From the NCBI GenBank assembly GCA_018676675.1, contig JABHEG010000064.1, positions 26,211-90,210 of the forward strand: a stretch of DNA of 64,000 bases, given 5' to 3'. The DNA comes from Lentisphaerota bacterium. Lineage in GTDB: Bacteria; Verrucomicrobiota; Lentisphaeria; Oligosphaerales; JABHEG01. Each line of letters begins with the position of its first letter. Position 1 is the stretch's first letter. Made by a program: the position numbers and the translations under genes. Below, piece after piece: positions 17,106 through 39,441 of the stretch. Below the pieces are notes generated by a model that was not told where the DNA came from, did not search any database, and worked only from the letters and a program-made list of their open reading frames with translations.

Positions 17106-18011
17106 GTGGCAGTAGCTGAGCAACCAACCAAATGGCTTGAGGATCCGGACCTCTTCATGTCCATGGAGGATCTTGAGCTGGTGGCATACGGGGTCGTCGA
17201 GGGCGCCCTGCATGGCCTGCACCGCAGCCCGTATATCGGCTTCAGTGTCGAGTTTGACGCTCACCGCGAATACCAGTTCGGGGACGATCTCCGCTACGTC
17301 AACTGGAATCTCTGGGGACGAACAGACCGCCTCTACATCAAACAGTTCAAAGCCGACACGAACCTCAACCTTTACTTGCTGTTGGACACAAGCGGGTCCA
17401 TGCTCACCGACCATGGACCAACCGCAAAATGGCGCTACGGGGCCAGGGCCATCGCAGCGCTGTCATTCCTCTCGCTCCGTACGCGCGACGCAACCGGGCT
17501 CTTCCTCCTTCAGGACCACGTGCGTGGCCATGTTCCGCCGCGTGTCCGGCCAGGCCAGTTCCATGAGATTCTGGCAGCGTTGACAGAAACCGAACCGACA
17601 GGCTCAACCGACATTGCCCGTGCCCTCGAGGAAACACTTGAGCTCTGCCGCCGCCGCGGGATTGTCCTGCTTGTTTCCGATCTCTTCGACAACGAAGACG
17701 ACATCCTGCGCAGCCTGTCAGCCCTGCGTTACTACGGGCATGAAGTGATCGTCCTCCACCTGCTTGACCCATGGGAGCACACCCTTCCGACCCGCGGCCA
17801 GTACGAGTTCCGGGATCTGGAAACGGGAGAGACTGTCCGCGCCCACGCCGGTTCGCTACGGGAATCCTATGGGCAGGTCGTGCAGGACTGGCGAGAAGGC
17901 CTCAGGAAGCGCTGCGAAGATGCCGGTATTGACTGGCTGGCGTGCGATACAGACACCCCGTTGCGCGAGCTTCTGATCGATTATCTACTAAAGAGAGCGA
18001 CGTTGCACTGA
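17106..18011 (+). CDS. DUF58-family protein (vWA-like MoxR partner)
   Basis: GDDLRYVNWNLWGRTDRLYIKQF ... LYLLLDTSGSM (MIDAS-like DxSxS). Canonical position after MoxR. Confidence 0.75.
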   Translation: MAVAEQPTKWLEDPDLFMSMEDLELVAYGVVEGALHGLHRSPYIGFSVEFDAHREYQFGDDLRYVNWNLWGRTDRLYIKQFKADTNLNLYLLLDTSGSMLTDHGPTAKWRYGARAIAALSFLSLRTRDATGLFLLQDHVRGHVPPRVRPGQFHEILAALTETEPTGSTDIARALEETLELCRRRGIVLLVSDLFDNEDDILRSLSALRYYGHEVIVLHLLDPWEHTLPTRGQYEFRDLETGETVRAHAGSLRESYGQVVQDWREGLRKRCEDAGIDWLACDTDTPLRELLIDYLLKRATLH

Positions 18012-26533: not shown

Positions 26534-27016
26534 TCAGAAGAACACCAGGCGTATCTTGGGAATGGCGCCGCAGTGGATTTCGAGTTCTCGGAAGGCGAGG
26601 GATCCAACCCGGACAGCCCGACGCAGAGGAGCGGTCTTCAGGACGGCAATCAGGATCAGGTGAGCCAGCCGATGCTCTTTGGATTCGGCGAGAACAGCGT
26701 CCTTTGTTGCCTCGTCAATCTCTTCGCGCACGGTGAATCTGGGGACAACTTTCGGCGGCATGCCGATGTCGACCGACAGTGAGTCGAGCACATAGCCGGC
26801 CTTCTCGAGGTAGGGCACGGCGTCGTGTAGTTCGTCGGTGATCTGCTTGATCTTGCGGTGGCTGAAGTCCCGCAAAGGTGCAGGCGGCTCCTCGGGCGGC
26901 ACGAGTTCCTGCGGGACAGGCGGCGGGCCATGCCCTCCGGGAAGTGCGTGCTTTACCTCATCAACCACGCCTCCCGCAGTACGAATTGCGCCATCCATCA
27001 GTGAGAGTTTTGCCAT
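26534..27016 (-). CDS. Hypothetical protein (160 aa), divergent from the pspA operon
   Basis: ORF convergent with the 24192 gene and divergent from pspA. No recognisable domain. Contains a proline-rich linker PPPVPQELVPPEEPPAP. Confidence 0.35.
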   Translation of the reverse strand: MAKLSLMDGAIRTAGGVVDEVKHALPGGHGPPPVPQELVPPEEPPAPLRDFSHRKIKQITDELHDAVPYLEKAGYVLDSLSVDIGMPPKVVPRFTVREEIDEATKDAVLAESKEHRLAHLILIAVLKTAPLRRAVRVGSLAFRELEIHCGAIPKIRLVFF

Positions 27017-27113: not shown

Positions 27114-27142
27114 TTGCAATCGTTCCGCGTTCACTCTATTAT
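27114..27142 (+). promoter_or_regulatory. Near-consensus sigma70-type promoter (TTGCAA-17 bp-TATTAT) upstream of pspA, with a 7-bp-stem hairpin in the predicted 5' UTR
   Basis: ttgcaa at 27114-27119, 17-nt spacer, tattat at 27137-27142. The AT-rich hexamers stand out in a 62% GC background. UTR hairpin tcgcgga-caacggca-tccgcga at ~27146-27167. RBS ggagg 8 nt before the ATG at 27199. Confidence 0.4.
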
Positions 27143-27198
27143 CGTAATCGCGGACAACGGCATCCGCGACTTGCCCACGTTAGGAGGAGAAGTGTATT

Positions 27199-27972
27199 AT
27201 GGGGATCTTTCGTTCTATATATCGGTATGTCGTGACTCTGGGAGGTCTGATCGAGAGTGACATCAGCGGCAAGACCGATGACATGCTCTCTACGCCCTCC
27301 GGGATCAAAGCCACGTTTTCCAAGACCCGCGGCCAATGGACTCGGCAGTACGGGGAAGTGCGGGAAGCCGTAGCTCAACTCATGATGGTCCTTGATCAGA
27401 AGAGTCGCCGAGTCGCCCAGTTGCGAGAGGAAGCAGAGGCCACTCAGGCGAAGCTCAAGGGTGCTGTCGCCAAGTTCAAGGAGACCGACGAGCCCCACTA
27501 CCGCCAGGCTTTCACGGAGCTCTTTGAGCGAGACAAAGCAATCACTGCCGAACAGCAAGGGCTTAGCGATGAGATCGTCGAGCTGCGCAACAAGGTGGAG
27601 AGCTACAAGACAAAACTGCGTGAAATGCAGACGCGCATTTCCGGCTTGAAGAAGCAGGAATCCGAAGCGATCGCCGACATCGTCAGCAGTCAGCAGATCA
27701 TCAAGCTCAACGACAGCTTGAACGAGTTGACAACCGATCTCGACGACCAGAACGTTCGAGCAATCGAGGACCGGCGGCTGAAGCTCCTGAGCCAGGCCAA
27801 ACTCTCCGGCGAACTCACGGAGGGCGAATTGAAGCCGGATCTGGATAAGGAACTCCTGGAGGCAGGCCGGAAGTCAGAAGTCGACGACGTCTTCGCCGCG
27901 ATGTTGGCGGAAACGGAGGCCAGCGCTCCTGAAGCCGAGGAAGAGGAAGGCGAGCGGCAACGTGAAATCTGA
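27199..27972 (+). CDS. pspA: PspA/IM30/Vipp1/LiaH-family protein (bacterial ESCRT-III-like membrane-remodelling protein)
   Basis: N-terminus MGIFRSIYRYV, then a long heptad coiled-coil (RVAQLREEAEATQAKLKGAVAKFKE...). Size and pattern are typical of the PspA/IM30 family. Confidence 0.75.
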   Translation: MGIFRSIYRYVVTLGGLIESDISGKTDDMLSTPSGIKATFSKTRGQWTRQYGEVREAVAQLMMVLDQKSRRVAQLREEAEATQAKLKGAVAKFKETDEPHYRQAFTELFERDKAITAEQQGLSDEIVELRNKVESYKTKLREMQTRISGLKKQESEAIADIVSSQQIIKLNDSLNELTTDLDDQNVRAIEDRRLKLLSQAKLSGELTEGELKPDLDKELLEAGRKSEVDDVFAAMLAETEASAPEAEEEEGERQREI

Positions 27973-27996
27973 CGTCGGCAGTGAAGGGGAGGCAGT

Positions 27997-29775
27997 GTGG
28001 TGGGTAAGACCCAGTTAGATCTGGGGTTCATGGAGCAAATCCGGGACTGGTTCCTCTCTCAGCAGTCGAATCAGTTCCTGGTGACAGGCAACGTTCTCGA
28101 CGTCCTGCGCTGTCCATGGCTGTCTCGGGAAGAACAGCTGTCCGACGCGAACTACGTGTCTCTCCCCGACTATTTGACCACGCGCCTCTCCATGAAGCAG
28201 CGGGTGATCATCACCTTCAACATTGCTCGTGGACTGACCTTCGCAGACGACGCGTCCCATGACATAGCCCGGCGCATCTATCTGTCCCGCTTCGAGCCGG
28301 AGGACGTAGAAGACGCGGAGGAGCGATTCAACGACGTGGTCGCACGCAGCGCAAGCTGGACGTTCCCCGCCCTGGTCCTGTTGCGCAAGCTCTGCGAAGC
28401 TTCCTCGCAACCCCCGCGCCCCAAAGGGGCATCCATCGCCGTGATCATCGAACATGCAGAGAGTCTGCTCCCAAACCTCCCCATTGCCCGCATGGGCGAC
28501 ACCGACCGGCAGCGACTCGTCTTCTTCAAGGAATGGCTGACAGAACGCGGATTCGTGATGTCAGACCACCTGCTGGTGCTCGTGTCCGAGACGGCCAGTG
28601 CGGTCAATGAATCGCTCAGATCCCTCCCTCATCTCGTGACCATCAATATTCCCCTTCCTGAGGAGGACGAACGTCGACGTTTCATTCAGTGGTGCCTGCG
28701 GCGCAATCCCGGGCTTCAGTTGGTCGGCACGCAGAAGGAGTTCGCCCGAATCAGCGCAGGAATGACACTGATGGGCATTGAGCAGACGATTCGGCTGGCC
28801 CAGTACAGACGCGGGAAACTGACCCGCGCGGACTTTGTTGCCTGCCTCAAACGGCTCCTGGTAAGCCGGATCGGTGACCACGTTGAGCTGGTCGAGCCCC
28901 AACATACGCTCGCAGACGTCCTGGGGAACGCCGCTCTGAAGAGCCAGCTCAAGCGCATCACAACGGCCTTGGACCAAGGAGATCCAGGCACCGCTCCGGT
29001 CGGGATCCTGATGACCGGACCGAACGGCGTAGGAAAGACCTTTATCGCTCTTGCCTGGGCCCGGGAAAGTGGACGAACAGCCCTGATACTGCGGAATCTG
29101 CGCAGTTCCTTCTTCGGGGAGACCGATCAGATTTTCGAGAAGATCCGTCAAGTGCTTGAGGTCCTGGGCAATGTGATGATCCTGGTAGACGAAGCGGATA
29201 CGGTATTTGCCCGGCCGGGAGCCAACGTGCATGAGACCGAGCAGCGTCTCTTCGGTAACGTGATCCAGATGATGGGCGATCCTCAGAACCGGTCACGCAT
29301 CCTCTGGGTGCTGATGACGGCCCGCCCGGACAACCTGGCCCCGGACCTGAAACGCAGCGGGCGCTGTGGTCTCCACCTGCCGGTTTTCGATCCGGAGGAT
29401 TCGGATCGACGCCAGTTCGTGGAGGATCTCCTGGCACGGAACGGTGCCAGCATTGACGAAATGCCCACTGAGGGCCTGACAGAGTTCGAAGACCGGACAC
29501 GCGATTACAGCGCAGCAGACTTCCGCGAACTGGCGGCTGAGCTCAAAACCGAGGAGCTGGCTCTAGGGCATCCATTGGCGCCCGACGAGATCCTTGGTGT
29601 TGTGCGCGACATGCTGCCGGCCGAAGGTGGGCCTGAACGCCGAATGCAGACCCTTCAGGCGTTCATGCACTGCTCACGGAAATCACTCGTCCCGAAAAGC
29701 CTGCGCCATCTGGATCGCGAGACCGTAGCGCGTCAAGTTGCGACTATGCAGGGACACACCGACGACGGAGGATAG
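27997..29775 (+). CDS. Classic-clade AAA ATPase (Vps4/FtsH/CbbX/SpoVK-like single active module) with ~330-aa N-terminal domain of unknown function (possibly a degenerate AAA-like module)
   Basis: Walker A GILMTGPNGVGKTF, Walker B VMILVDEADTVF, sensor-1 VLMTARPDNLAPDL, arginine-finger-region RSGRCGLHL. 24 bp after pspA, with a GGAGG-like RBS. Confidence 0.7.
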   Translation: MVGKTQLDLGFMEQIRDWFLSQQSNQFLVTGNVLDVLRCPWLSREEQLSDANYVSLPDYLTTRLSMKQRVIITFNIARGLTFADDASHDIARRIYLSRFEPEDVEDAEERFNDVVARSASWTFPALVLLRKLCEASSQPPRPKGASIAVIIEHAESLLPNLPIARMGDTDRQRLVFFKEWLTERGFVMSDHLLVLVSETASAVNESLRSLPHLVTINIPLPEEDERRRFIQWCLRRNPGLQLVGTQKEFARISAGMTLMGIEQTIRLAQYRRGKLTRADFVACLKRLLVSRIGDHVELVEPQHTLADVLGNAALKSQLKRITTALDQGDPGTAPVGILMTGPNGVGKTFIALAWARESGRTALILRNLRSSFFGETDQIFEKIRQVLEVLGNVMILVDEADTVFARPGANVHETEQRLFGNVIQMMGDPQNRSRILWVLMTARPDNLAPDLKRSGRCGLHLPVFDPEDSDRRQFVEDLLARNGASIDEMPTEGLTEFEDRTRDYSAADFRELAAELKTEELALGHPLAPDEILGVVRDMLPAEGGPERRMQTLQAFMHCSRKSLVPKSLRHLDRETVARQVATMQGHTDDGG

Positions 29776-29780
29776 AACCA

Positions 29781-30181
29781 TGGAACTTGCCGATCCCAAA
29801 GTCATCTACGCCGACATCCTCATCGCGCTCGCCAATGCGGATGACATCGTTGACCCGCGAGAACGAGAGATGCTGGACGGAATTTTCACCCAAATGGGAT
29901 TGGGCGAAGAGACGGTCGCCAAGCTCTGGCTCACGCCGCGAACCCTCGATGTGGCCGAGGCGCTCCTTAAGGACATCACGGATGCTCGCTTCAAACGCTG
30001 TCTCCTGAAAGACTGCTACCTGCTTGCCTATGCCGATGAGGACATCGAGCCGGGCGAAAGCAAATTTATCAAGGCCATGCAGGGAGCGTCCGGTCTCGAT
30101 GATGACGTCGTGGATGCCATCGGGGAATGGGTGGAAACCGCGGTAGCGCAACAGCGCAAAGCCGCCGAACTTTTCGAATAG
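29781..30181 (+). CDS. TerB-like (tellurite-resistance TerB / DjlA-N fold) small protein
   Basis: MELADPKVIYADILIALANADDIVDPREREMLDGIFTQMGL...CYLLAYADEDIEPGESKFIKAM is a paired-helix TerB-like pattern. GGAGGA RBS 7 nt upstream. Starts 6 nt after the AAA gene stop. Confidence 0.5.
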
Positions 30182-30234
30182 ACGCACGTCCGTCAATCGC
30201 TCCGAGGACGCGCTACTGCGAAAGGACATGAAAC

Positions 30235-30903
30235 GTGGAGCTCTTCCAGACAATCACCAGTTCAGGGATGTTCCCCTACACGGTCCTGCTAGGCCTGATG
30301 GTGCTCTATTGGGTCGTGGTCATCATCGGGGCTATCGATATCGGCATTCTCGACTTCTTTGATTTCGGAGACCTGGGCGAGGCGGCCGAGGGAGCAGCGG
30401 AAGGTGTCGAGGCAGCGGGTGAAGCGGCCGAGGGCATGGACGGGGTATTCTCAGCAATCCTTGGCTTCCTGAGCTTGGGACAGGTACCGGTGACCGTGGT
30501 GCTGTCACTGTTGATCTTGAAGCTATGGTTCCTGGCGCTCCTCATGACGCTCTACCTACCGGCATCGCTGCGTGATGTCGTTCCGCCTCTCTTCCTGGGT
30601 GCGGCCGGCTTTGTCTTCGCGTTCATCGTGAGTGTGATGCTCACAGGCTTGACAGCTCGCCCGCTGCGGCGCGTGTTCAAGCGGAACCCGGTGCGAGGCC
30701 ATGCGCACCTGGTGGGCCAGATCTGCAAGGTCAAGAGTTCGCGTGTGACCGAGAAGTTCGGGCAAGCCGAACTGCGGGTGCGCAATTCATTCCTTCTCAT
30801 CGAAGTGAGGTCCAAAGAGGAAGAGGAACTCGAACGCGGACAGGAAGCGGTTATCGTGAGCTATGACCACGATCGCGATGTGTATCACGTTAGGGGGGTG
30901 TAA
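30235..30903 (+). CDS. NfeD-like (YuaF/YqiJ-like) membrane protein with C-terminal OB-fold, partner of SPFH proteins
   Basis: N-terminal TM helices (YTVLLGLMVLYWVVVIIGAI, VTVVLSLLILKLWFLALLMTL) and a C-terminal beta-rich domain (GQICKVKSSRVTEKFGQAELRVRNSFLLIEVRS...EAVIVSYDHDRDVYHVRGV). Directly upstream of a flotillin. Confidence 0.55.
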   Translation: MELFQTITSSGMFPYTVLLGLMVLYWVVVIIGAIDIGILDFFDFGDLGEAAEGAAEGVEAAGEAAEGMDGVFSAILGFLSLGQVPVTVVLSLLILKLWFLALLMTLYLPASLRDVVPPLFLGAAGFVFAFIVSVMLTGLTARPLRRVFKRNPVRGHAHLVGQICKVKSSRVTEKFGQAELRVRNSFLLIEVRSKEEEELERGQEAVIVSYDHDRDVYHVRGV

Positions 30904-30989
30904 TCGCGCAGTCCTGCGCAGGACTGCCGCAGACGTAATGAACCACAAGTTATCTGAGTAACTGGAAACGGAAAAGGAGAGATGGGGCA

Positions 30990-33011
30990 ATGAATGGAAT
31001 TGTGTTCGCAGGGATTCTCGGGCAGAGCATCGGCATGATGATTTTGGGAGGCGCACTAATTTTCGTGGGCTTGATGGTGCTGATCATGAAGTTCTACCGC
31101 AAGGTGGAACAGGGCAAAGCACTGATTGTCAACTGCTGGGGTGACAAGGTCACGGTTACGTTCACCGGTGGGGTGGTCTACCCAATCATTAACAAAGCCG
31201 AGGTCATGGATATCTCGGTGAAAGCGATGGAGATCGAGCGTGAAGGCAAGAACGGTCTGATTTGCGAGGACAACATCCGAGCAGACATCCGTGTGACCTT
31301 CTATGTGCGGGTGAACAAGACCGAGGACGATGTGCTGAAGGTCGCCCAGGCTGTGGGCTGTGCTCGAGCCTCGGCCCGAGAAACACTCGAAGAGCTCTTC
31401 CAAGCCAAATTCTCGGAAGCTCTGAAGACCGTCGGTAAACAGATGGGGTTCATCACTCTGTTCACCGAACGCGAGAGCTTCAAAGAACAGATCATCATGG
31501 TCATTGGGGAAGACCTGAACGGCTACAAGCTGGAAGATGTCGCTATCGACTACCTCGAACAGACCCCGCTGAGCTCGCTTGAGCCGGACAACATCCTGGA
31601 CTCCCAGGGCATCCGTAAGATCGTCGACCTCACCTCGACTGAGGCCATGGCCACGAACGAATTCCGACGGAACAAAGAGCGGGTGATCAAGCAACAGGAC
31701 GTTGAGACGCGAGAGAAGATCCTCGAGCTCGAGCGGCAGGAAGCCGACGCTGAAGCCAAGCAGCACCGTGAGATTGCAACCGTTCAGGCGCGGGAAACGG
31801 CGGAAGCAGAGAAGGTTCAGGCCGAGGAACGTCTCAAGGCTGAGCGAGCTCAGATCCAGACGGCCGAGGAATTGGCGGTCGCGGAACAGAACAAGGACCG
31901 CCAGGTCGAGGTCGCGGCCAAGGCCAAAGAACGCACGATCGCGGTTGAGACCGAGCGGGTCATTCGGGACCGCGAGCTGGAGGAGGTCGAGCGTGAACGC
32001 CTGGTGGCGCTGAAGTCGATCGAGAAGGAGAAAGCGGTCGAGATCGAGAAGAAGCAGATCCAGGATGTCATCCGTGAGCGGGTTATGGTCGAGCGGACCG
32101 TGGCTGAAGAACAAGAGAAGATCAAGGACACGGTTGAGATTGCGGGAGCTGAGCGTGAACGGAAAACACGCGTAATTGCCGCAGAGCGGGATGCCCAGGA
32201 GCTCGTGGTCAAAGAGGTGAAGGCAGCCGAAGCGAAAGAGGAAGCCGCGAAGAGCCTCTACGAAGAGCAGGTGACGATGGCGGAAGCTAGTCGCATCAAG
32301 GCTGAAAAGGAAGGCGAAGCGAAGAAGACACTCGCGGCAGGAACGGTGGCTGAGAAGTCGGCGGAAGGACTGGCCGACGTGCGGGTGCAGGAAGCGGAAG
32401 CAAACGCCATTGAGCTGCGCGGCAAGGCAGAAGCCGTAGCCCAGATCGAGGGCCACAAGGCCACGGCGTTCGGGACCGAGACGACCGGTGAAGCCAAAGC
32501 CAAGGCTATGACGCTGGAGTACCAGGCCGAGGCCACGGGCATCAACCAGAAGGCCGACGCCATGAAGCGGCTGGATGAGGTCGGACGTGACCACGAGGAG
32601 TTCAAACTCGAACTCACCAAGGAAGAGCGCGTCGAGCTGGCCACCATCGACGTCAACCGCCAGATCGCCGAGGCTCAGGCCACGGTGTTGGCAGAAGCCA
32701 TGAAGACCGCCAAGATCGATATCGTGGGCGGGGACGGCGAATTCCTCAAGAACTTCCTCCGCTCCGTCAGTCTGGCTAAGTCGGTCGATGAATTCGTGAG
32801 TAAGAGTGACGAAGCCCAGAAGCTGCTGGACGGAGATGACGGGAACATCGCGTCGCGGATGGCGGATGTCCTGTCCTCCGCGGGCATTGGCTCCGATGAC
32901 GTCCGCAACTTGAGTCTGGCCAACTTGATGGCCAAACTCGGCGAAACCAAAGGCGGTCCCCAGGCGATTGAAGGGCTGCGGGAAATGATGGTCGGCTGGC
33001 TCGAGAAGTAG
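30990..33011 (+). CDS. floT: Flotillin-like SPFH/band-7 protein (FloT/YuaG/YqiK-type) with long coiled-coil region
   Basis: N-terminal TM (FAGILGQSIGMMILGGALIFVGLMVLIMKF). SPFH domain (ALIVNCWGDKVTVTFTGGVVYPIINKAEVMDISVKAM...). Then ~350 aa EA-rich heptads typical of flotillins. Confidence 0.8.
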   Translation: MNGIVFAGILGQSIGMMILGGALIFVGLMVLIMKFYRKVEQGKALIVNCWGDKVTVTFTGGVVYPIINKAEVMDISVKAMEIEREGKNGLICEDNIRADIRVTFYVRVNKTEDDVLKVAQAVGCARASARETLEELFQAKFSEALKTVGKQMGFITLFTERESFKEQIIMVIGEDLNGYKLEDVAIDYLEQTPLSSLEPDNILDSQGIRKIVDLTSTEAMATNEFRRNKERVIKQQDVETREKILELERQEADAEAKQHREIATVQARETAEAEKVQAEERLKAERAQIQTAEELAVAEQNKDRQVEVAAKAKERTIAVETERVIRDRELEEVERERLVALKSIEKEKAVEIEKKQIQDVIRERVMVERTVAEEQEKIKDTVEIAGAERERKTRVIAAERDAQELVVKEVKAAEAKEEAAKSLYEEQVTMAEASRIKAEKEGEAKKTLAAGTVAEKSAEGLADVRVQEAEANAIELRGKAEAVAQIEGHKATAFGTETTGEAKAKAMTLEYQAEATGINQKADAMKRLDEVGRDHEEFKLELTKEERVELATIDVNRQIAEAQATVLAEAMKTAKIDIVGGDGEFLKNFLRSVSLAKSVDEFVSKSDEAQKLLDGDDGNIASRMADVLSSAGIGSDDVRNLSLANLMAKLGETKGGPQAIEGLREMMVGWLEK

Positions 33012-33022
33012 GACGATTGAAG

Positions 33023-36000
33023 ATGGCTGACGAAGAAACCAGACAGGACGTGGCCCAAAACCGGCAGGAAGAGGCAGCCGAGCAGCAGTCTCTCGAAGGC
33101 GGAGCATATGAGGTCCTCCGAAAACGCCTGGAGGCGTTGGACGGGGACCTATGCTCACGCCTCGAGAAACTCAACGTTGCCCGGAAGGAGGTGTTCGGGG
33201 GTAAGGAGTCCCAGGTCATTGGGAATGACAGGATCCCGACTGACAACAACTGTGTGCCACGGGACATCACAGGTGTCGGCGACTATGTCATCTTTGGTTA
33301 CAACGTCTTCATCGGTCTGCGGACCCAGACCAAGATTGGTGATGTGCTCAGCGTACACTTGCTGGAGGACACACACTTCCGTCACGTAGACAACGAGGTG
33401 CTGTCCGACCCGAGATTCGTCAAGGACTTCACCGAACTCTACACCTACTACAAGCATGCCCGCTTCCTTCAGTTTGTCCGGAAGACGGGGTCGCTCCTGA
33501 TCATCTTCCAGACCGGCGCAAGCCTGGACGACGTCTGCATATTCCGGTTCCAGGTCAACAAGGACGACACGGTTGAGTACATCGACAATCGGGGTGATAT
33601 CCACTACAAACTGCCGGCCCAGCATGAGTTTGAGTGGGTTAGTACGACCCGGGACAACCAGGTCCAGGGCATGCACCCCCACATCAGCGTTGACGACAGG
33701 GTGTTTGTCGAGTGCACGGAAGGTGACCTGACCATCAAGGTCGAGAACAACACCGAGACGGGCGAAGGCGTCTACTCAGAGCCGGTAGACAACAAGGACC
33801 AGACGCTGGACGATGCGGACATTCGGTACGCGATCGTCGGCGACCTGATTCTGTTCAGGATTCGGCCCTACCGTGAAGACCGCGACCGCCATCTTGTGTT
33901 CAACCAGAAGCGGCAGACTGCCGTCCGCATGGATTCCATCGCTCAAGCATGCATCCAGTTGCCTGAAGACCACGGCATCATTACCCCAAAGGGCTACTAC
34001 CTCCAGGATGGACGGCAGCGGGAATTCGATGAAAACGTCGAGGGGATGGGCTATCTCGAGTGCATCAAATCCCCCAACGGCGAGGACTTCCTTTACATCT
34101 TCTACCACGTCGCCCAGGGACGACACGTCCTGATCCAGTACAACCTCATCTCCAAAGAGCTGAGCACGCCGATCTTCTGTCACGGTTACTCCCTGTACGG
34201 CGATGGCCGGATGGTGCTCTTCAGTGCCCCGGACGAAGAGCCCAAGCGCATCCACCCAATGCAGGTTTGGCAGACTCCCTTCTACGCTGATACGCACGAG
34301 GTAACTCAGGACGCAGATTCGTTCCTGGGCAAGATCGGCAACCGGGCGTTGGTTCGCGGCATCTCCGAAGGGTACGCAATCAGTCGGCTCATCACGAGCA
34401 GCCACATCACTCTGGAGACATACCACGACTCGATCAGAGCCACCACGCACATGCTGGACGGCTACCATTGGCTGGGGCATGAGGACGTCTTCGATCTGCA
34501 AGGCGTGGTGCAGCAGGTGAAGGCAGCGGCCGTAGCCGCGGTAGACGAGTACGAGAAGGTCGTCACCATCAGGGAGAGCACGGAACAGCAGTTGCGCGAG
34601 AATGATGCCGCGGTCCGTGATTGTCTACTGACGTTCAGCATCGACCGCATGGAGTCCATCGATGATTATGTCAATGGACTGGCCGGGATCCGTTCGCGGC
34701 GTGGTCACATCATTTCTCTGCGAGAACTCCGCTACGTTGATCTAGAGCTGATTGATCGGCTCGATGGGAGGCTTGAGGAACGCAGCGGGGAGCTCGCCCT
34801 GTCATGCGTGGATTTCCTGCTCAGGCCGGACGCGCTGAAGCCCTACACCGCAGTGAACACCGAACTGGATGCCAAGCTGGAAGAGGTCGGCAAGATCGCC
34901 GATCTCAAACCCATTATCGAATCTCTCGAAGACTTGGCCGGCCGACTCGACCTGTTGACCGATATTGTCAATAATCTGGAGATCGACGACGCGACCAAGA
35001 CAACCCGGATTGTCGACAGCATCACCGACGTATACGCGGGGGTGAACCGCACGCGAGCCATGGCGCGGACACTGCGCCAGGACATTGGCAAGGTCGAAGC
35101 CAAAGCCGAATTCGCCGCCCAGTTCAAGCTGGTCAGCCAAAGCATCACCAACTACATCGGCATGTGCGACACGCCGGAGAAGTGTGACGAACTGCTGACC
35201 AAAGTGATGGTGACGGTTGAGGAACTCGAGGGACGCTTCGCTGACTACGAGGAATACGTCACACAGCTAGCCGAGAAACGTGAAGAGGCCTACACCGCCT
35301 TCTCCAGCCGAAAACAGGTACTGGATGAGGAAAGGAAGCGCCGCGTTTCCTCTCTCGTGTCATCGGCGGAACGCATCTTGAAAGGCGTGGTCAACCGAGC
35401 CGAGACATTCGAGAGCATTGATGAGGTGAATGCGTACTTCGCATCCGACCTCATGGTCTCGAAGGTGCGCGACGCCATCACCCGCCTCCATGAGATTGGG
35501 GACTCCGTCAAGGCCGATGACTTGACCGGCCGGCTGCGAAGCTCCAAAGATGAGCTTATCCGCCACCTCAGGGACAAGATCGACCTGTTCCAGGGCGGCG
35601 ACAACATCATCTCCTTCGGCGACTACCGATTCACCGTCAATACCCAGCCCCTCGAACTGACCACGGTGTATCGCGACGATGAGATGGTCTTCCATCTGAC
35701 CGGGACGGACTTCTACGAAGCCATCGAGGATCCTGAATTCCTGGCCACTCGCGACCTATGGCAGCAGCAACTCGTCAGCGAGAGCAGGGATGTGTACCGC
35801 GGGGAGTTCCTGGCCTACCAGATGCTGACTGCAGCCATCAATGGACAGTCAGGACTCTCAACCGGCCTGCTGACAGAAAAAGCTGAAGCAGAGGAATTGT
35901 TGCCGTTGGTGAGGGAGTTTTCCGCCGCTCTGTATGACGAAGGCTACGAGCGGGGTGTCCATGACCACGATGCTGGACTCATCCTTACCGCGATCATCCA

Positions 36001-38284
36001 GCTCTACAACACCTGCGAACTTTTGCGCTACGACTCCACCTCCCGTGGGCATGCGATCCTCTTCTGGTGCTTCTACGAGGGCGAGGACGTCAAGACCATG
36101 CTGCGCACACGCATGCGGAGTGTGGGGACGTTGCCCCGGATCTTCGGCCATGATGAACCCAATCTCGAGTACATTGAGGAAATCCGGAAGCGTGTCGAGG
36201 AGTTCCACCGTACCTTGGATCTGGACCTCGACGCCGCCACGCTGGCCCACTCGGCCGAGTATCTCTACTACGAGCTCCAGGATACACACGAACTGGAGTT
36301 CACCGTCAACGCACTGGCTCATCAGCTCCACCAGCGCTTCATCGGTGTGCTGCGCGGACGCAAGGCGTTGAAGCAGTTCGAGGAAGACATTGCAGCCGTT
36401 GACGAGGTCGCCAGACGCATCGATCTGATTGCCGACTGGGTGTCTGCCTTCATCCGCAAGGAGGAGCCTGAAGACAGCGCCCATTTCCTCTGGGAAGTGG
36501 TAGCACTCATTGCGGCCGGAGAAGTCATCAGCCGCGACACGACCGAAGTGACGACCTTTGCCGCGGTTAAGGGGGTTCTTGGCCAGCACCCGCTGATCCA
36601 TGACAAGACGCTTGACCTTCACTTTGATCGTTTCCTGATCAAGATGAAGCAGTTCGCCGAGTCCCGTGTGCCGACGTTCCGTACGTACGTGCATCTCCGG
36701 GCCGAACTCACCGAGAAGCGTCGGCGAGAGATGCGGCTGTCGGAGTTCCAGTCCAAGGTCATGGGCTCCTTCGTCCGCAACAAGTTGATTAACGATGTCT
36801 ATCTCAATCTGGTGGGTGCGAACTTCGCAAAGCAGATGGGTGTGGCCGGCGAAGCGAAGCGGACGGATTTGATGGGATTGCTGCTACTCGTCTCCCCGCC
36901 GGGGTATGGAAAAACGACCCTCATGGAATACGTGGCCAACCGACTGGGCCTGACCTTCATGAAAGTCAACGGCCCGGCAATCGGACACCAGGTGACCTCA
37001 CTGGATCCGGTCGAGGCCCCCAACGCGACCGCACGCGAAGAGCTTGGGAAACTGAATCTTGCCTTCGAGATGGGCAATAACATCATGATCTATCTCGATG
37101 ACATACAGCACCTGAACCCCGAACTCCTTCAGAAATTTATCTCCCTCTGTGACGCTCAGCGGAAGATCGAAGGCGTGTACCGCGGAGTCACGCGGACGTA
37201 CGATCTGCGTGGCAAGAAGGTCGCCGTGGTGATGGCCGGAAATCCATACACAGAGAGTGGCGAGAAGTTCAGGATCCCGGACATGTTGGCTAACCGGGCC
37301 GACACCTACAACCTCGGAGATATCAGCAGTACAGCCGCGGATGCGTTCGCGTTGAGTTTCGTCGAGAACGCCATGACCTCCAATCCCGTCCTCTCGAAAA
37401 TCGCTTCCCATGGGCATGAGGACATCTATCGTTTCATGGATGTCGTGCGGAAGGGGTCGCAGGAAGGCATCGAGTTCGACTACAGCTACTCAGCCGCGGA
37501 AGCCAAGGAGATCACCGATGTTCTCGCTAAGCTCTGCACGGTACGCGATGTCGTTCTTCGAGTTAACAGCCAGTACATCGCCTCTGCGGCTCAGGAGGAT
37601 GACTACCGCACGGAGCCGCCTTTCAGGCTTCAGGGCTCCTACCGGAACATGAATCGAATGGCGGAGAAGGTTTTCCCGGTCATGACCGACGAGGAAGTCA
37701 TTCAGGTCGTCTTCGACCATTACTACAATGAGGCTCAGACGCTCACGACCGGAGCCGAAAGCAATATCCTCAAGTTCAAGGAGATGATGCAGGCTCTGAC
37801 CGACGATGAGCAGGCTCGGTGGCAGGAGATCAGGACCGAGTTCGGTCGACGCCAAGTGCTGTCGGGAGTTGACGATACGGATGACCTGGGCAAGATTCTA
37901 GCCCAGCTCTCGGGCTTCAACGCAGGGATGGGGCGCATTCGGGACACGCTGAACAGCGGCCTTGGATCAGGTATGAAAGCCCTCACCGAGGCCGTTCAGA
38001 AGACGACCGAGAAGGGCCCTGATGAGGGACCGTCCATCGACCTGGCTCCCGTGGTCGAGGCTCTGCAGCAACTCCGGGACGCGCCAAAGCAGGACGCCCC
38101 TGCCACCCAGGCGCTGCCCGGCTACGACGAAGCGTTGGCAAAGCAAGTGTCACTGCTCGAGTGTCTCGTCCCCATGGTCGAGCACCTGGAGGAGCAGTCA
38201 ATCACGCACGTCCGCATCCGTGAGCTGATTGAGGGAATTCTCTCCGGAAACGTCGTCGTGGCCATGAACTCCGGCGGCCAGTAG
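33023..38284 (+). CDS. Giant (~1754 aa) protein: ~1250-aa N-terminal region with no recognisable domain + single C-terminal MoxR/AAA_5 (dynein-related)-type P-loop ATPase module
   Basis: Walker A LLLLVSPPGYGKTTLMEYVANRL, Walker B IMIYLDDIQHLNPE, sensor-1 VAVVMAGNPY, Arg MLANRADTYNLGD. Starts 11 nt after the flotillin stop, so it is probably translationally coupled. The longest-ORF TTG at 33017 was trimmed to the ATG at 33023. Confidence 0.7.
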   Translation: MADEETRQDVAQNRQEEAAEQQSLEGGAYEVLRKRLEALDGDLCSRLEKLNVARKEVFGGKESQVIGNDRIPTDNNCVPRDITGVGDYVIFGYNVFIGLRTQTKIGDVLSVHLLEDTHFRHVDNEVLSDPRFVKDFTELYTYYKHARFLQFVRKTGSLLIIFQTGASLDDVCIFRFQVNKDDTVEYIDNRGDIHYKLPAQHEFEWVSTTRDNQVQGMHPHISVDDRVFVECTEGDLTIKVENNTETGEGVYSEPVDNKDQTLDDADIRYAIVGDLILFRIRPYREDRDRHLVFNQKRQTAVRMDSIAQACIQLPEDHGIITPKGYYLQDGRQREFDENVEGMGYLECIKSPNGEDFLYIFYHVAQGRHVLIQYNLISKELSTPIFCHGYSLYGDGRMVLFSAPDEEPKRIHPMQVWQTPFYADTHEVTQDADSFLGKIGNRALVRGISEGYAISRLITSSHITLETYHDSIRATTHMLDGYHWLGHEDVFDLQGVVQQVKAAAVAAVDEYEKVVTIRESTEQQLRENDAAVRDCLLTFSIDRMESIDDYVNGLAGIRSRRGHIISLRELRYVDLELIDRLDGRLEERSGELALSCVDFLLRPDALKPYTAVNTELDAKLEEVGKIADLKPIIESLEDLAGRLDLLTDIVNNLEIDDATKTTRIVDSITDVYAGVNRTRAMARTLRQDIGKVEAKAEFAAQFKLVSQSITNYIGMCDTPEKCDELLTKVMVTVEELEGRFADYEEYVTQLAEKREEAYTAFSSRKQVLDEERKRRVSSLVSSAERILKGVVNRAETFESIDEVNAYFASDLMVSKVRDAITRLHEIGDSVKADDLTGRLRSSKDELIRHLRDKIDLFQGGDNIISFGDYRFTVNTQPLELTTVYRDDEMVFHLTGTDFYEAIEDPEFLATRDLWQQQLVSESRDVYRGEFLAYQMLTAAINGQSGLSTGLLTEKAEAEELLPLVREFSAALYDEGYERGVHDHDAGLILTAIIQLYNTCELLRYDSTSRGHAILFWCFYEGEDVKTMLRTRMRSVGTLPRIFGHDEPNLEYIEEIRKRVEEFHRTLDLDLDAATLAHSAEYLYYELQDTHELEFTVNALAHQLHQRFIGVLRGRKALKQFEEDIAAVDEVARRIDLIADWVSAFIRKEEPEDSAHFLWEVVALIAAGEVISRDTTEVTTFAAVKGVLGQHPLIHDKTLDLHFDRFLIKMKQFAESRVPTFRTYVHLRAELTEKRRREMRLSEFQSKVMGSFVRNKLINDVYLNLVGANFAKQMGVAGEAKRTDLMGLLLLVSPPGYGKTTLMEYVANRLGLTFMKVNGPAIGHQVTSLDPVEAPNATAREELGKLNLAFEMGNNIMIYLDDIQHLNPELLQKFISLCDAQRKIEGVYRGVTRTYDLRGKKVAVVMAGNPYTESGEKFRIPDMLANRADTYNLGDISSTAADAFALSFVENAMTSNPVLSKIASHGHEDIYRFMDVVRKGSQEGIEFDYSYSAAEAKEITDVLAKLCTVRDVVLRVNSQYIASAAQEDDYRTEPPFRLQGSYRNMNRMAEKVFPVMTDEEVIQVVFDHYYNEAQTLTTGAESNILKFKEMMQALTDDEQARWQEIRTEFGRRQVLSGVDDTDDLGKILAQLSGFNAGMGRIRDTLNSGLGSGMKALTEAVQKTTEKGPDEGPSIDLAPVVEALQQLRDAPKQDAPATQALPGYDEALAKQVSLLECLVPMVEHLEEQSITHVRIRELIEGILSGNVVVAMNSGGQ

Positions 38285-38310
38285 GGGAAACGACCGCTTA
38301 CATAGAAACC

Positions 38311-39441
38311 ATGGACACTGCTATGCCCCTGATCAGCCCCTTCCCCGCCAGCCGCTTCTTCGACTTGCACCGCCTGCTGGCCTTGACGCCGGGGCCGTCC
38401 AACCACGAGGGACCGCGACGCCTCGTCCTTGAGGAACACCTACACGCCTGCGATGTCCGCACCACGACAGATCCGGCGGATAATCTGTGGGTGCATATGG
38501 GATCCGGACCATGGGAAGATACGATCGTTTTCGACGCCCACGTGGACGTTGTGGAGCGTGGGTATGCAAGGGAGGTGATCCACGGCGCTGATACCCTTCA
38601 GGGGCTGGGAGTGGGGGACGACCTCGTGGCGGTGACGATGCTGGCTCTGCTGGCCGAACAGCTGGCCGACGAACGGGGCGCTCTTGAACGCCCCCTGTCC
38701 ATACTTTTCAGTGTGGGAGAAGAGGGCCTGGGCAATCTTCGCGGCGTAAGACAGGTTGTCGCAGACCATCAGACTGCCCCATGGGCATTCGTGTCCTTCG
38801 ACGGCTCATTGGACCGCTGTGCCAACGTGGGTCTGGGCTCGCTGCGCTACCGATTGCGTGTATCCTGTCCGGGGGGCCACAGCTGGGGCAACTACGGAGC
38901 CCCCAATGCCATCGACCAACTGACGGACGCCCTGGCCGTTCTCAGGGCGGCCCATCGGAAGGTGGCCGGCAGCGTCGACGCACCCGTTAGCTGGAACATG
39001 GGAACGATCAACGGGGGGCAGGGGATCAACTCCATTGCCCGCATGGCTGAAGCGACGTTCGAGTGTCGGAGTACATGTCCTCAGGCTCTGAGCCGCATCG
39101 ACCGCGCGTTCGCGGAGGCACTCCGGCCAATCCGCGCTCGGGAACATGTCAAAGTGATGCGTCGTGTCATCGGGCGAAGGCCCGCCGCGCAGGCTGTGCA
39201 TCCCGAACGCCTGGTACCAGTCGCAACGGCCGTTTTGAAGGAAACGGGCATCGAGCCGGAGTTCAAGCCAGCCAGCACAAACATCAACGCCCCGCTCGCC
39301 GCGGGCTGGCCGGCCCTCTGCATGGGCCTCTGCATCTGCGGGAATGCACATCGCGAGGATGAGTTCGTGCAGCTTGATTCACTGCCGAAGGGATGGCGGT
39401 GCCTCTCCCGGCTCCTCGAGGAGTTGGTCGTCAGGAAGTAG
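38311..39441 (+). CDS. M20-family metallopeptidase/deacylase (ArgE/DapE/PepT-like)
   Basis: IVFDAHVDVVERG...GVGDDLVAV...FSVGEEGLGNLRG...GGHSWG...NINAPLAAGWPALCMG match the M20 metal-ligand and dimerisation-domain patterns. Confidence 0.55.
   Translation: MDTAMPLISPFPASRFFDLHRLLALTPGPSNHEGPRRLVLEEHLHACDVRTTTDPADNLWVHMGSGPWEDTIVFDAHVDVVERGYAREVIHGADTLQGLGVGDDLVAVTMLALLAEQLADERGALERPLSILFSVGEEGLGNLRGVRQVVADHQTAPWAFVSFDGSLDRCANVGLGSLRYRLRVSCPGGHSWGNYGAPNAIDQLTDALAVLRAAHRKVAGSVDAPVSWNMGTINGGQGINSIARMAEATFECRSTCPQALSRIDRAFAEALRPIRAREHVKVMRRVIGRRPAAQAVHPERLVPVATAVLKETGIEPEFKPASTNINAPLAAGWPALCMGLCICGNAHREDEFVQLDSLPKGWRCLSRLLEELVVRK

What the first reader, a model, noticed from the sequence alone, without database searches (positions are those of the whole stretch)
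27114..39441. 12-kb operon linking PspA (ESCRT-III-like), a classic AAA ATPase, TerB, NfeD, flotillin and a giant AAA_5 protein
Seven genes on one strand with 6-90-bp gaps: pspA, AAA ATPase, TerB-like, NfeD-like, flotillin, a 1754-aa MoxR/AAA_5-type giant protein, and an M20 peptidase. A single strong sigma70-like promoter sits in front. PspA/IM30 with an NfeD and an SPFH protein is known from B. subtilis pspA-ydjGHI, and the NfeD-flotillin pair is the widespread yuaF-floT/yqiJK module. The two ATPases are different: (i) a Vps4/FtsH-clade classic AAA immediately after the ESCRT-III-like PspA, which mirrors the ESCRT-III/Vps4 and CdvB/CdvC logic, and (ii) a giant single-module AAA_5 protein translationally coupled to the flotillin. 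To my knowledge the combination as a whole is not a described system. It reads as a composite membrane-remodelling, envelope-stress or possibly phage-response machine.
Basis: partly seen in the sequence, partly recalled or inferred. Interest (0 to 1): 0.85.

Follow-up and report, generated by a model that had tools for sequence, protein, structure and literature searches.

The report
PspA–AAA module joined to flotillin–ATPase module
Six same-strand genes in a Lentisphaerae genome join two modules already predicted to act in membrane maintenance (a PspA polymer with its own AAA unfoldase, and an NfeD–flotillin pair with a giant ATPase), so this is a clade-specific variant of known systems, not a new kind of machine.

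Summary
The genes are real and the order is conserved. PspA–tandem AAA–TerB–NfeD/YqiJ–flotillin–DUF3686 ATPase recurs in four other PVC-type loci at 44–91% protein identity. The M20 peptidase is absent from the four arrays that can be read downstream, so it is a neighbour.

The array is two older modules placed side by side.
- PspA plus a tandem classic AAA (dead D1, active D2 with a pore loop) is linked in 56 of 73 informative loci across many phyla.
- NfeD–flotillin–DUF3686 is linked in about 95% of informative DUF3686 loci.

Ravi et al. 2024 predicted both modules. The P. aeruginosa bacABCDEF operon appears to be a studied version of the second.

Three things seem new: the fusion of the two modules, the TerB gene, and a 160-aa divergent gene that also flanks the flotillin module in four other loci.

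The AAA is Cdc48/Rix7-like. It has no MIT domain, so it is a Vps4 analogue, not a Vps4. The giant ATPase cannot be placed in MoxR/AAA_5. The promoter match is no better than chance. I found no support for a phage or defence role.

The most likely function is membrane repair or remodelling, with one ATP-driven remodeller per scaffold. That is inferred, not shown.

The parts
26534..27016 (-). 160-aa protein of unknown family, transcribed divergently from pspA. Candidate accessory of the flotillin/DUF3686 module.
   Evidence: No Pfam, NCBIfam, PADLOC or PDB match. Homologues at 18-32% identity directly flank the NfeD-flotillin-DUF3686 triad in L164, L165, L161 (two copies) and L107. It is absent from the other four six-gene arrays.
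27114..27200 (+). Two sigma-70-like matches (TTGCAA-17-TATTAT and TTGCCC-18-TATTAT) and an AGGAGGAG ribosome-binding site ahead of pspA.
   Evidence: Each match is 9/12, and the number of such sites in the region equals the shuffle expectation, so function is not shown.
27199..27972 (+). Divergent PspA/IM30 (ESCRT-III superfamily) protein of the AAA-linked subfamily, 'PspA(a)', 257 aa.
   Evidence: PF04012 E=5.8e-4 over 37-217/220. 13 of 26 family members hit PF04012, best E=5.5e-9. The family profile's top PDB hits are Vipp1/PspA, E=4e-4. Profile-profile match to the flotillin-linked PspA(b): 95% probability, E=2e-8. It has an N-terminal amphipathic helix and a conserved C-terminal tail motif.
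27997..29775 (+). Tandem (type II) classic AAA ATPase, 592 aa, with a degenerate D1 and a catalytically complete D2.
   Evidence: PF00004 at 337-461. PDB sequence hits are VAT, p97 and Cdc48. The AF2 model has pLDDT 88, and Foldseek aligns 460-640 columns to Rix7, NVL, AFG2 and Cdc48. D2 carries GPNGVGKT, pore loop S-F/Y-F-G, VDEAD and KRSGR. D1 has TGNVLD at the P-loop position.
29780..30181 (+). TerB-domain protein, 133 aa, starting 4 bp after the AAA stop codon.
   Evidence: PF05099 30.1 bits, above the cut-off. PDB 2ou3 E=0.0026. The subfamily is narrow, with 36 hits. The next two, at 53-54%, sit in unrelated contexts.
30235..30903 (+). YqiJ/YuaF-type short NfeD membrane protein, 222 aa.
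   Evidence: The window protein hits YqiJ_N only at E=0.037. 7 of 22 family members hit YqiJ_N. The family profile's only PDB hit is B. subtilis YuaF 2k14, E=1e-3. This gene lies upstream of flotillin in 49 of 51 informative loci.
30990..33011 (+). Flotillin-like SPFH protein, 673 aa: N-terminal membrane segment, Band 7 domain, long E/A/K-rich coiled coil.
   Evidence: Residues 1-250 hit PF01145 at E=9e-13, 49 bits. The full-length protein gives no hit. It lies directly upstream of DUF3686 in 57 of 60 informative loci.
33023..38284 (+). Giant DUF3686 AAA+ ATPase, 1753 aa: N-terminal helix, beta-rich domain, helical bundles (DUF7902), one divergent AAA+ module, conserved C-terminal region.
   Evidence: PF12458 E=8e-184, PF25472 E=2e-24, PF00004 E=4e-8. 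More than 6400 relatives at about 45% identity across phyla. The AF2 model of residues 1-580 has pLDDT 86. Walker A is SPPGYGKTT and Walker B is the invariant YLDDIQH.

Best explanation
A six-gene membrane-maintenance locus, possibly seven genes with the divergent 160-aa gene, built from two modules that usually occur apart.

Module 1 is PspA(a)-AAA-TerB.
- PspA(a) is an ESCRT-III-fold protein that polymerises on stressed inner membrane through its N-terminal amphipathic helix.
- The tandem AAA forms a Cdc48-like hexamer. Its active D2 ring, with a conserved aromatic pore loop, threads PspA(a) subunits, probably from the conserved C-terminal tail. This disassembles or recycles the polymer.
- It therefore does the job that Vps4 does for ESCRT-III, without being a Vps4 homologue.
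- TerB is a clade-specific adaptor or sensor for this module.

Module 2 is NfeD-flotillin-DUF3686.
- Flotillin and its NfeD partner form an SPFH cage or microdomain on the membrane.
- The giant DUF3686 AAA+ protein is its dedicated ATP-driven partner and remodels the cage or its clients.

Putting the two modules in one array couples a PspA polymer to a flotillin platform, as YdjI does for PspA in B. subtilis.

Shown: the domain identities, intact catalytic motifs, the two conserved linkages and the conserved six-gene order. Inferred: every protein-protein contact, the substrates, co-transcription and the physiological role.
For: - PspA(a) lies upstream of the AAA on the same strand in 56 of 73 informative loci: 39 directly, 14 within 4.5 kb and 3 at about 5.5 kb behind ABC-transporter genes. 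These span Acidobacteriota, Poribacteria, Desulfomonilaceae, Sumerlaeota, Nitrospinota and PVC.
- The AAA has a complete D2 and a conserved pore loop, and its predicted fold is Cdc48/Rix7-like.
- PspA(a) has a conserved C-terminal helix followed by an R-[ED]-[LI] or DDRP-x-I end. The one PspA(b) representative read lacks this end.
- Flotillin lies directly upstream of DUF3686 in 57 of 60 loci, and NfeD upstream of flotillin in 49 of 51.
- The full six-gene order recurs in L002, L081, L082 and L170 at 44-91% identity.
- Four different PspA-bearing modules sit in front of the triad in different lineages:
  - PspA(a)-AAA-TerB (this locus);
  - DUF2170 or CesT_Tir_1 with PspA(b), in 10 of 43 informative loci;
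  - a 189-aa protein with a PF04012 PspA in L165;
  - PspA with a glutathionylspermidine-synthase operon on plasmid pQBR103.
- Literature:
  - Ravi et al. 2024 predict both modules.
  - B. subtilis PspA needs the SPFH protein YdjI to reach the membrane (PMC8581546, title and abstract).
  - The P. aeruginosa bac operon is one transcript and has biofilm and virulence phenotypes.
Against: - No experiment exists for any protein of this locus or for the tandem-AAA family.
- The two modules are apart in most genomes. None of the 80 sampled DUF3686 metagenome loci carries the AAA or TerB.
- Only the window and four other loci have the fusion.
- In those relatives the TerB-NfeD gap is 97-461 bp in three loci, though the genes overlap in L081. 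Other internal gaps reach about 620 bp. Separate promoters are therefore likely there.
- The window PspA is below Pfam's cut-off.
- Sensor-1 Asn is Ala throughout the AAA family. DUF3686 has DD instead of DE in Walker B. ATPase kinetics may therefore be unusual.
- TerB relatives at 53-54% identity occur in unrelated contexts.
Confidence: 0.55

Rival explanations
1. Two independent operons sit side by side by accident of synteny in one PVC clade. PspA-AAA-TerB and NfeD-flotillin-DUF3686 each work alone, with no functional coupling.
For: - The modules are separate in most genomes.
- L001 has PspA-AAA-TerB only, L003 has the dyad only, and L164 has the triad only.
- The TerB-NfeD gap is 97-461 bp in three of the four related arrays.
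Against: - The order is kept at 44-66% protein identity in three loci, while the flanking genes differ completely.
- The gap is only 53 bp here and the genes overlap in L081.
- Three other, unrelated PspA modules have independently landed in the same position in front of the triad.
Confidence: 0.25
2. An anti-phage or abortive-infection defence system, a 'phage shock' machine in the literal sense.
For: - Weak PADLOC similarities: IetA/TRIP13 to the AAA and BnzA to TerB.
- Large ATPases next to membrane proteins are common in defence islands (general knowledge).
Against: - The PADLOC hits are generic AAA or TerB-domain matches at E=1e-5 to 1e-6 with no system-specific partner.
- DUF3686 has no relative on 2.9 million viral contigs or in 50,697 phage records.
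- The neighbours are housekeeping or glycan-degradation genes, not defence or mobile genes.
- DUF3686 is about 45% identical across phyla, which is unlike fast-evolving defence genes.
Confidence: 0.05
3. The giant protein is a DNA-repair ATPase, as Pfam and NCBI name it, and the locus links membrane stress to DNA processing.
For: - The database names are 'ATPase involved in DNA repair' and 'DNA repair ATPase'.
- There is a weak RuvB_N match to the P-loop region.
Against: - No nuclease, helicase or DNA-binding domain was detected.
- The RuvB and Cdc48 matches cover only about 35-70 residues around Walker A.
- Its near-obligate neighbours are flotillin and NfeD membrane proteins.
- No paper in the library mentions DUF3686.
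Confidence: 0.05
4. The AAA is a protein-quality-control unfoldase for membrane proteins, Cdc48- or FtsH-like, and PspA is only co-regulated with it rather than being its substrate.
For: - The Cdc48/AFG2/Rix7-like fold.
- In many phyla the dyad is embedded in an ABC-transporter operon.
Against: - No protease or adaptor gene is consistently linked.
- PspA(a) is a dedicated subfamily with a conserved tail and is seen only next to this AAA in the loci examined.
Confidence: 0.1

Closest known systems
PspA + 'inactive classical AAA + classical AAA' dyad (Ravi et al. 2024, mSystems, PMC11237479; examples Clostridium AEY64320/1 and Handelsmanbacteria OGG56892)
   Same: Same domain architecture: a dead N-terminal AAA and a live C-terminal classic AAA next to a PspA. 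My class I loci reproduce their PspA-PBP/OmpA-permease-ABC ATPase-AAA operon.
   Different: Here the dyad is followed by TerB and by the flotillin module. TerB appears nowhere in that paper or its supplement. The dyad has not been tested experimentally.
P. aeruginosa bacABCDEF (PA3732-PA3727) and the CesT/Tir-PspA-YqiJ-flotillin-AAA+(-PLD) operons of Ravi et al. 2024
   Same: NfeD/YqiJ, flotillin and a large ATPase in the same order, preceded by a PspA. The bac operon is one transcript by RT-PCR. I infer that BacE/PA3728 ('ATPase') is a DUF3686 protein from the matching six-gene order in L110. I did not test this directly.
   Different: - No DUF2170 or CesT chaperone and no PLD here.
- The PspA is of another subfamily (no cross-hit by HMM).
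- A tandem AAA and TerB are added.
- The candidate promoter is sigma-70-like, not sigma-54.
ESCRT-III/Vps4 and CdvB/CdvC
   Same: An ESCRT-III-fold polymer gene lies next to a classic-clade AAA with an aromatic pore loop. The PspA has a conserved C-terminal tail that could play the role of a MIM.
   Different: No MIT domain, two AAA cassettes instead of one, and the best structural matches are Rix7/Cdc48/AFG2. This is an analogue, not a homologue. A 2025 review still states that a Vps4-like ATPase 'appears absent in bacteria' (PMC7619361).
B. subtilis pspA-ydjGHI and yuaF-floT; E. coli yqiJK
   Same: A PspA linked to an SPFH protein, and the NfeD-flotillin gene pair (the family profile hits YuaF).
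   Different: Those loci encode no ATPase at all. YdjI is a soluble SPFH protein recruited by YdjG/H.
HflK/C-FtsH
   Same: A working model only: an SPFH cage paired with a dedicated AAA+ machine.
   Different: DUF3686 has no protease domain and no detectable relation to FtsH beyond the P-loop. Any contact with flotillin is inferred from gene linkage.

Membership tests
PspA/IM30 (ESCRT-III superfamily) | Match to PF04012 above the gathering score | tested here: inconclusive
   The window protein scores 20 bits against a cut-off of 33.9, but the match is collinear over 37-217/220. 13 of 26 family members match, best E=5.5e-9.
PspA/IM30 (ESCRT-III superfamily) | Profile similarity to solved PspA/Vipp1 structures, and an N-terminal amphipathic helix | tested here: met
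   The top four PDB hits of the family profile are Vipp1/sll0617, E=4e-4 to 3.5e-3, collinear over 53-233. The N-terminus MGIFRSIYRYVVTLGG is conserved. No structure was predicted for this protein.
Vps4/CdvC | N-terminal MIT domain and a single AAA cassette | tested here: not met
   The model shows an AAA-like alpha/beta domain plus lid at residues 10-300, followed by a second AAA. Foldseek aligns both cassettes to tandem AAA proteins.
Vps4/CdvC | Classic-clade AAA with pore loop 1, Walker A/B and arginine fingers, encoded next to an ESCRT-III-like gene | tested here: met
   The motifs are conserved in 34 sequences. CdvC NF041006 E=3.6e-7, far below its cut-off. Adjacency holds in 56 of 73 loci.
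Cdc48/p97/Rix7 type II AAA | Tandem D1-D2 AAA cassettes | tested here: met
   Foldseek E=1e-18 to 1e-16, TM 0.34-0.56, over 460-640 columns to Rix7, NVL, AFG2 and Cdc48.
Cdc48/p97/Rix7 type II AAA | Substrate- or adaptor-binding N domain, and a nucleotide-binding D1 | tested here: not met
   The protein starts directly with D1. D1 has TGNVLD in place of GxxGxGKT and IIEHAE in place of hhhhDE. CDC48 TIGR01243 scores 64 bits against a cut-off of 803.
   No CbbX or SpoVK model or structure appears among the NCBIfam matches or the top PDB hits shown. The JGI label 'SpoVK/Ycf46/Vps4 family' is a generic COG name. The PspA linkage is strong.
TerB | PF05099 above the gathering score | tested here: met
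   30.1 bits against 24.4. PDB 2ou3 'tellurite resistance protein of COG3793', E=0.0026 over 8-126.
NfeD (YqiJ/YuaF short form) | Multi-pass N-terminal membrane region (YqiJ_N), C-terminal NfeD OB-fold domain, and a gene upstream of an SPFH gene | tested here: inconclusive
   Window protein: YqiJ_N E=0.037. Family level: 7 of 22 members hit YqiJ_N, 1 of 22 hits NfeD, and the profile hits YuaF 2k14 at E=1e-3. The position upstream of flotillin is met.
Flotillin / SPFH | Band 7 (PF01145) domain | tested here: met
   49.1 bits against 23.6 on residues 1-250.
Flotillin / SPFH | C-terminal flotillin-specific domain | tested here: not met
   No Pfam family was found on residues 454-673 at E<=10, nor on the full protein. 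No PDB sequence hit. 'Flotillin-like' rests on the architecture (membrane segment, SPFH, long coiled coil) and on Ravi et al.
DUF3686 'DNA repair ATPase' | PF12458 + PF25472 + one AAA+ module | tested here: met
   E=8e-184, 2e-24 and 4e-8. The DNA-repair role implied by the name has no support.
MoxR / AAA_5 | The AAA+ module is best explained by the AAA_5/MoxR models | tested here: inconclusive
   AAA_5 scores 25.3 bits (cut-off 22), but PF00004 scores 34.3. The family profile matches solved AAA+ proteins only around Walker A.
bacABCDEF-type operon | DUF2170 or CesT_Tir chaperone first, YjfJ-like PspA second, PLD last | tested here: not met
   No DUF2170, CesT or PLD was detected in the seven + strand genes or the divergent 160-aa gene. 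The window PspA is not hit by the PspA(b) HMM. The NfeD-flotillin-DUF3686 core is shared.
Known anti-phage defence systems (PADLOC) | A system-specific protein set | tested here: not met
   Only generic AAA or TerB-domain hits. Nothing on viral contigs or in phage records.

The most novel reading that the evidence does not exclude
The PspA(a)/tandem-AAA pair is the missing bacterial counterpart of ESCRT-III/Vps4. In this reading an ATP-driven unfoldase recognises a conserved C-terminal tail on PspA and recycles the polymer. In this PVC clade the pair would be physically wired, through TerB and perhaps the 160-aa protein, to a flotillin cage that has its own giant AAA+ remodeller. The result would be a two-engine membrane repair or vesiculation machine.
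Probability: 0.25. Interest if true: 0.8.

Novelty: new variant of a known kind. Interest (0 to 1): 0.48.

Why it matters
How bacterial ESCRT-III polymers (PspA, Vipp1) are taken apart is an open question. A 2025 review says a Vps4-like ATPase appears to be missing in bacteria (PMC7619361). The PspA(a)/tandem-AAA dyad is a concrete and widespread candidate. It has intact motor motifs and a conserved tail on its presumed substrate, so it can be tested in vitro.

The DUF3686 protein is among the most conserved large bacterial proteins without a function, at about 45% identity across phyla and more than 6400 relatives. Its database name, 'DNA repair ATPase', is probably misleading. Its near-obligate linkage to flotillin and NfeD suggests where to look instead.

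Several different PspA modules have been placed in front of the flotillin module in different lineages. That argues that PspA polymers and SPFH cages work together widely, not only in Bacillus.

Tried and rejected
- Full-length flotillin against Pfam, NCBIfam, PADLOC and PDB gave nothing. Only the N-terminal 250 residues gave Band_7, and even that fragment had no PDB sequence hit.
- A literature search for 'DUF3686' returned no papers. No listed paper links TerB with PspA, ESCRT-III or SPFH.
- A profile of the DUF3686 AAA+ module against PDB matched only the P-loop, so no clade could be assigned.
- The 160-aa protein shows no relation to DUF2170 or CesT_Tir_1 by hhalign, and has no Pfam or PDB match.
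- Rfam and tRNA scans of the whole window found nothing.
- The intrinsic-terminator scan found nothing above chance inside the array.
- Rejected readings: M20 as a member (not conserved), the defence-system reading, and the CbbX/SpoVK reading.
Full report
**1. Observation**

The window has about 60% G+C. Its giant protein is 100% identical to a protein that NCBI lists from a Lentisphaerae MAG.

I corrected two starts:
- TerB begins at the ATG at 29780 (133 aa, matching P0385). A GGAGGA lies inside the end of the AAA gene.
- The giant protein begins at the ATG at 33023 (1753 aa, matching P0121).

The gaps are 24, 4, 53, 86, 11 and 26 bp.

The promoter-like site at 27114 is real but ordinary. 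It matches 9 of 12 positions, a second 9/12 site lies at 27171, and the region holds 3 such sites against 3.3 expected from shuffles. No + strand terminator-like site stands out. Rfam and tRNA scans are empty.

The flanking genes look like ordinary chromosomal neighbours:
- a BatA/VWA protein;
- a 1440-aa low-complexity protein;
- a LamG protein;
- a PfkB kinase;
- GH123 enzymes.

**2. What each gene is**

*PspA.* The window protein matches PF04012 only weakly (E=5.8e-4). An alignment of 26 orthologues settles the assignment:
- 13 members hit PF04012.
- The profile's best PDB hits are Vipp1/PspA, aligned collinearly.

*The AAA.* It is a classic-clade enzyme. Sequence hits are VAT, p97, Cdc48, PAN, FtsH and CdvC.
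- Its AlphaFold model (pLDDT 88) aligns over both halves to the tandem AAA proteins Rix7, NVL, AFG2 and Cdc48.
- D1 has lost its P-loop and Walker B.
- D2 keeps GPNGVGKT, an S-(F/Y)-F-G pore loop, VDEAD and the KRSGR arginines. The sensor-1 Asn is Ala in the whole family.
- There is no MIT domain.
- The D1 domain defines a family of about 520 clusters at 50% identity.

*TerB.* It passes Pfam's cut-off and hits PDB 2ou3.

*The 222-aa membrane protein.* It is a YqiJ/YuaF-type NfeD at family level only.

*The 673-aa protein.* It has a Band 7 domain that is visible once the coiled coil is removed.

*The giant protein.* It is a DUF3686/DUF7902 protein with a single, very divergent AAA+ module.
- Its first 580 residues are predicted with confidence as a helix, a beta-rich domain and helical bundles.
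- No solved structure resembles the whole region.

*The last gene.* It is an ArgE/DapE-like M20 peptidase.

**3. Conservation of the AAA module**

I fetched 80 genome loci that encode relatives of the AAA. I mapped the window proteins onto them and clustered all ORFs.

Of the 73 loci with at least 1 kb of upstream sequence, 56 (77%) have a PspA(a) gene upstream on the same strand:

| Position of PspA(a) relative to the AAA | Loci |
|---|---|
| directly upstream | 39 |
| within 4.5 kb | 14 |
| about 5.5 kb away, separated by ABC-transporter genes | 3 |

Three contexts appear:
- *Class I* (Acidobacteriota, Poribacteria, Nitrospinota and others). The dyad sits in an operon with PBP/OmpA proteins, a permease and an ABC ATPase. 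This is the Handelsmanbacteria operon listed by Ravi et al..
- *Class II* (Desulfomonilaceae). PspA-AAA is followed by genes I read, from their sequence only, as TsaD and Hpt.
- *Class III* (PVC). PspA-AAA-TerB.

TerB and the flotillin module occur only in class III.

**4. Conservation of the flotillin module**

The giant protein has more than 6400 relatives. They are typically 45-48% identical across Planctomycetota, Myxococcota, Acidobacteriota, Desulfobacterota and others.

In 80 metagenome loci the linkage is near-obligate:

| Linkage | Informative loci with it |
|---|---|
| flotillin directly upstream of DUF3686 | 57 of 60 |
| NfeD upstream of flotillin | 49 of 51 |
| a DUF2170 or CesT_Tir_1 protein plus a good PF04012 PspA further upstream | 10 of 43 |

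A PLD or a TelA gene follows in some loci. None of these 80 loci carries the tandem AAA or TerB. There are no relatives on viral contigs or in phage genomes, and only 13 plasmid or chromid records carry one.

**5. The fusion**

The complete order PspA-AAA-TerB-NfeD-flotillin-DUF3686 recurs in four other loci:
- L002, a Verrucomicrobia MAG (44-66% identity per protein);
- L081 and L082, from ENA metagenomes (about 56-64% for the AAA and DUF3686);
- L170 (81-91%).

The flanking genes differ in every case.

The M20 gene is absent from L081, L082 and L170. No M20 was found in the about 0.5 kb that remains after DUF3686 in L002. I therefore treat M20 as a neighbour.

Close relatives show intermediate states:
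- L001 has PspA-AAA-TerB only.
- L003 has the dyad only.
- L164 has the triad only.
- L166 and L167 have DUF3686 alone.

Internal gaps in the relatives reach 300-620 bp, so internal promoters are plausible there.

The window PspA belongs to the AAA-linked subfamily. It is not the flotillin-linked YjfJ-like subfamily. The HMMs do not cross-hit, although profile-profile comparison shows they are related. The array therefore arose by placing module 1 in front of module 2, not by inserting an AAA into a bac-type operon.

Other PspA modules occupy the same position elsewhere:
- a Lentisphaeria MAG has a 189-aa protein plus a PF04012 PspA;
- plasmid pQBR103 has a PspA, rhomboid and glutathionylspermidine-synthase operon.

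Repeated, independent joining of this kind argues for a functional link.

**6. Extra components**

The 160-aa ORF that diverges from pspA (26534-27016, − strand) matches no known family. Its homologues directly flank the triad in L164, L165, L161 (two copies) and L107. It is a candidate accessory of module 2. It is not universal, because the other four six-gene arrays lack it.

The PspA(a) alignment shows a conserved C-terminal helix (F..ML), then a charged linker, then a conserved end of the form R-[ED]-[LI] or DDRP-x-I. I read this tail as a candidate recognition element for the AAA. That is inference only.

**7. Mechanism**

The best-supported reading is a membrane-maintenance system with two scaffolds, each with its own ATPase.
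- PspA(a) polymer is recycled by the tandem AAA. This is Vps4-like in logic and Cdc48-like in ancestry.
- A flotillin/NfeD cage is served by DUF3686.
- TerB is a clade-specific adaptor.

The domain identities, the intact motor motifs and the linkage statistics are shown. Contacts, substrates, co-transcription and physiology are inferred.

Experimental anchors from the literature:
- B. subtilis YdjI recruits PspA to the membrane (PMC8581546).
- The P. aeruginosa bac operon is one transcript, is thought to be sigma-54 dependent, and affects biofilm, rhamnolipid production and virulence (PMC2587700, PMC10948618).
- PaFlo3 (PA14_16180) is paired with the short NfeD PA14_16160 (PMC13086221).

**8. 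Comparison and novelty**

Both modules were predicted by Ravi et al. 2024. What appears new here is:
- their fusion in a PVC clade;
- the TerB member;
- the 160-aa accessory;
- the tail motif on PspA(a).

The field still regards a bacterial Vps4 equivalent as missing, so the dyad deserves an experiment. The idea itself is not new, however.

Verdict: a new variant of a known kind, of moderate interest.

Noticed in passing
window 26534-27016 (-): A 160-aa ORF divergent from pspA. It matches no known family, but its homologues directly flank the NfeD-flotillin-DUF3686 triad in four other loci (L164, L165, L161 twice, L107).
   Followed up: yes
L145 15328-17189; L146, L147, L151 downstream of DUF3686; L155 1590-2735 upstream of NfeD: A TelA (PF05816, E=3e-77) gene flanks the flotillin-DUF3686 triad in five metagenome loci, in four of them next to an unknown protein of about 240 aa. 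This is a second Ter-family protein, besides TerB, tied to this module.
   Followed up: partly
L171 (P. fluorescens SBW25 plasmid pQBR103, 85.1-97.6 kb): A same-strand run: PspA/IM30, rhomboid, DUF2491, DUF350, DUF1190, glutathionylspermidine synthase, hypothetical (NfeD-like), SPFH, 'DNA repair ATPase'. This is another PspA operon fused to the triad, here on a megaplasmid.
   Followed up: partly
window 27199-27972, C-terminus; alignment A3: AAA-linked PspA proteins share a C-terminal F..ML helix, a charged linker and a conserved last few residues (R-[ED]-[LI] or DDRP-x-I). The one flotillin-linked PspA(b) sequence read lacks this end.
   Followed up: partly
window 37091-37105 (DUF3686 residues 1357-1361); window 29320 (AAA residue 442): DUF3686 has an invariant Walker B YLDDIQH, with DD instead of DE. 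The tandem AAA has Ala in place of the sensor-1 Asn (TARPD) throughout the family. Both suggest unusual ATPase kinetics.
   Followed up: no
window 17942-24186 (+): A BatA/VWA gene is followed by a 1440-aa membrane-anchored protein with very long Q/E/A/P-rich low-complexity repeats and no Pfam match. This explains the extreme AT skew (0.53) at 22001-24000.
   Followed up: partly
L004, L010, L055-L078 (class I loci), about 5 kb upstream of the AAA: In many phyla the PspA-AAA dyad is split by PBP/OmpA, permease and ABC-ATPase genes. It is preceded by a coiled-coil protein of about 310 aa with no Pfam hit, which may be the TM+Snf7 protein of Ravi et al.
   Followed up: partly
literature: PA3728 (P. 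aeruginosa): PA3728 is listed as 'ATPase' and lies next to the flotillin PA3729. It appears among genes recurrently mutated in cystic-fibrosis isolates in three studies (PMC8190622). I did not verify that it is a DUF3686 protein.
   Followed up: no
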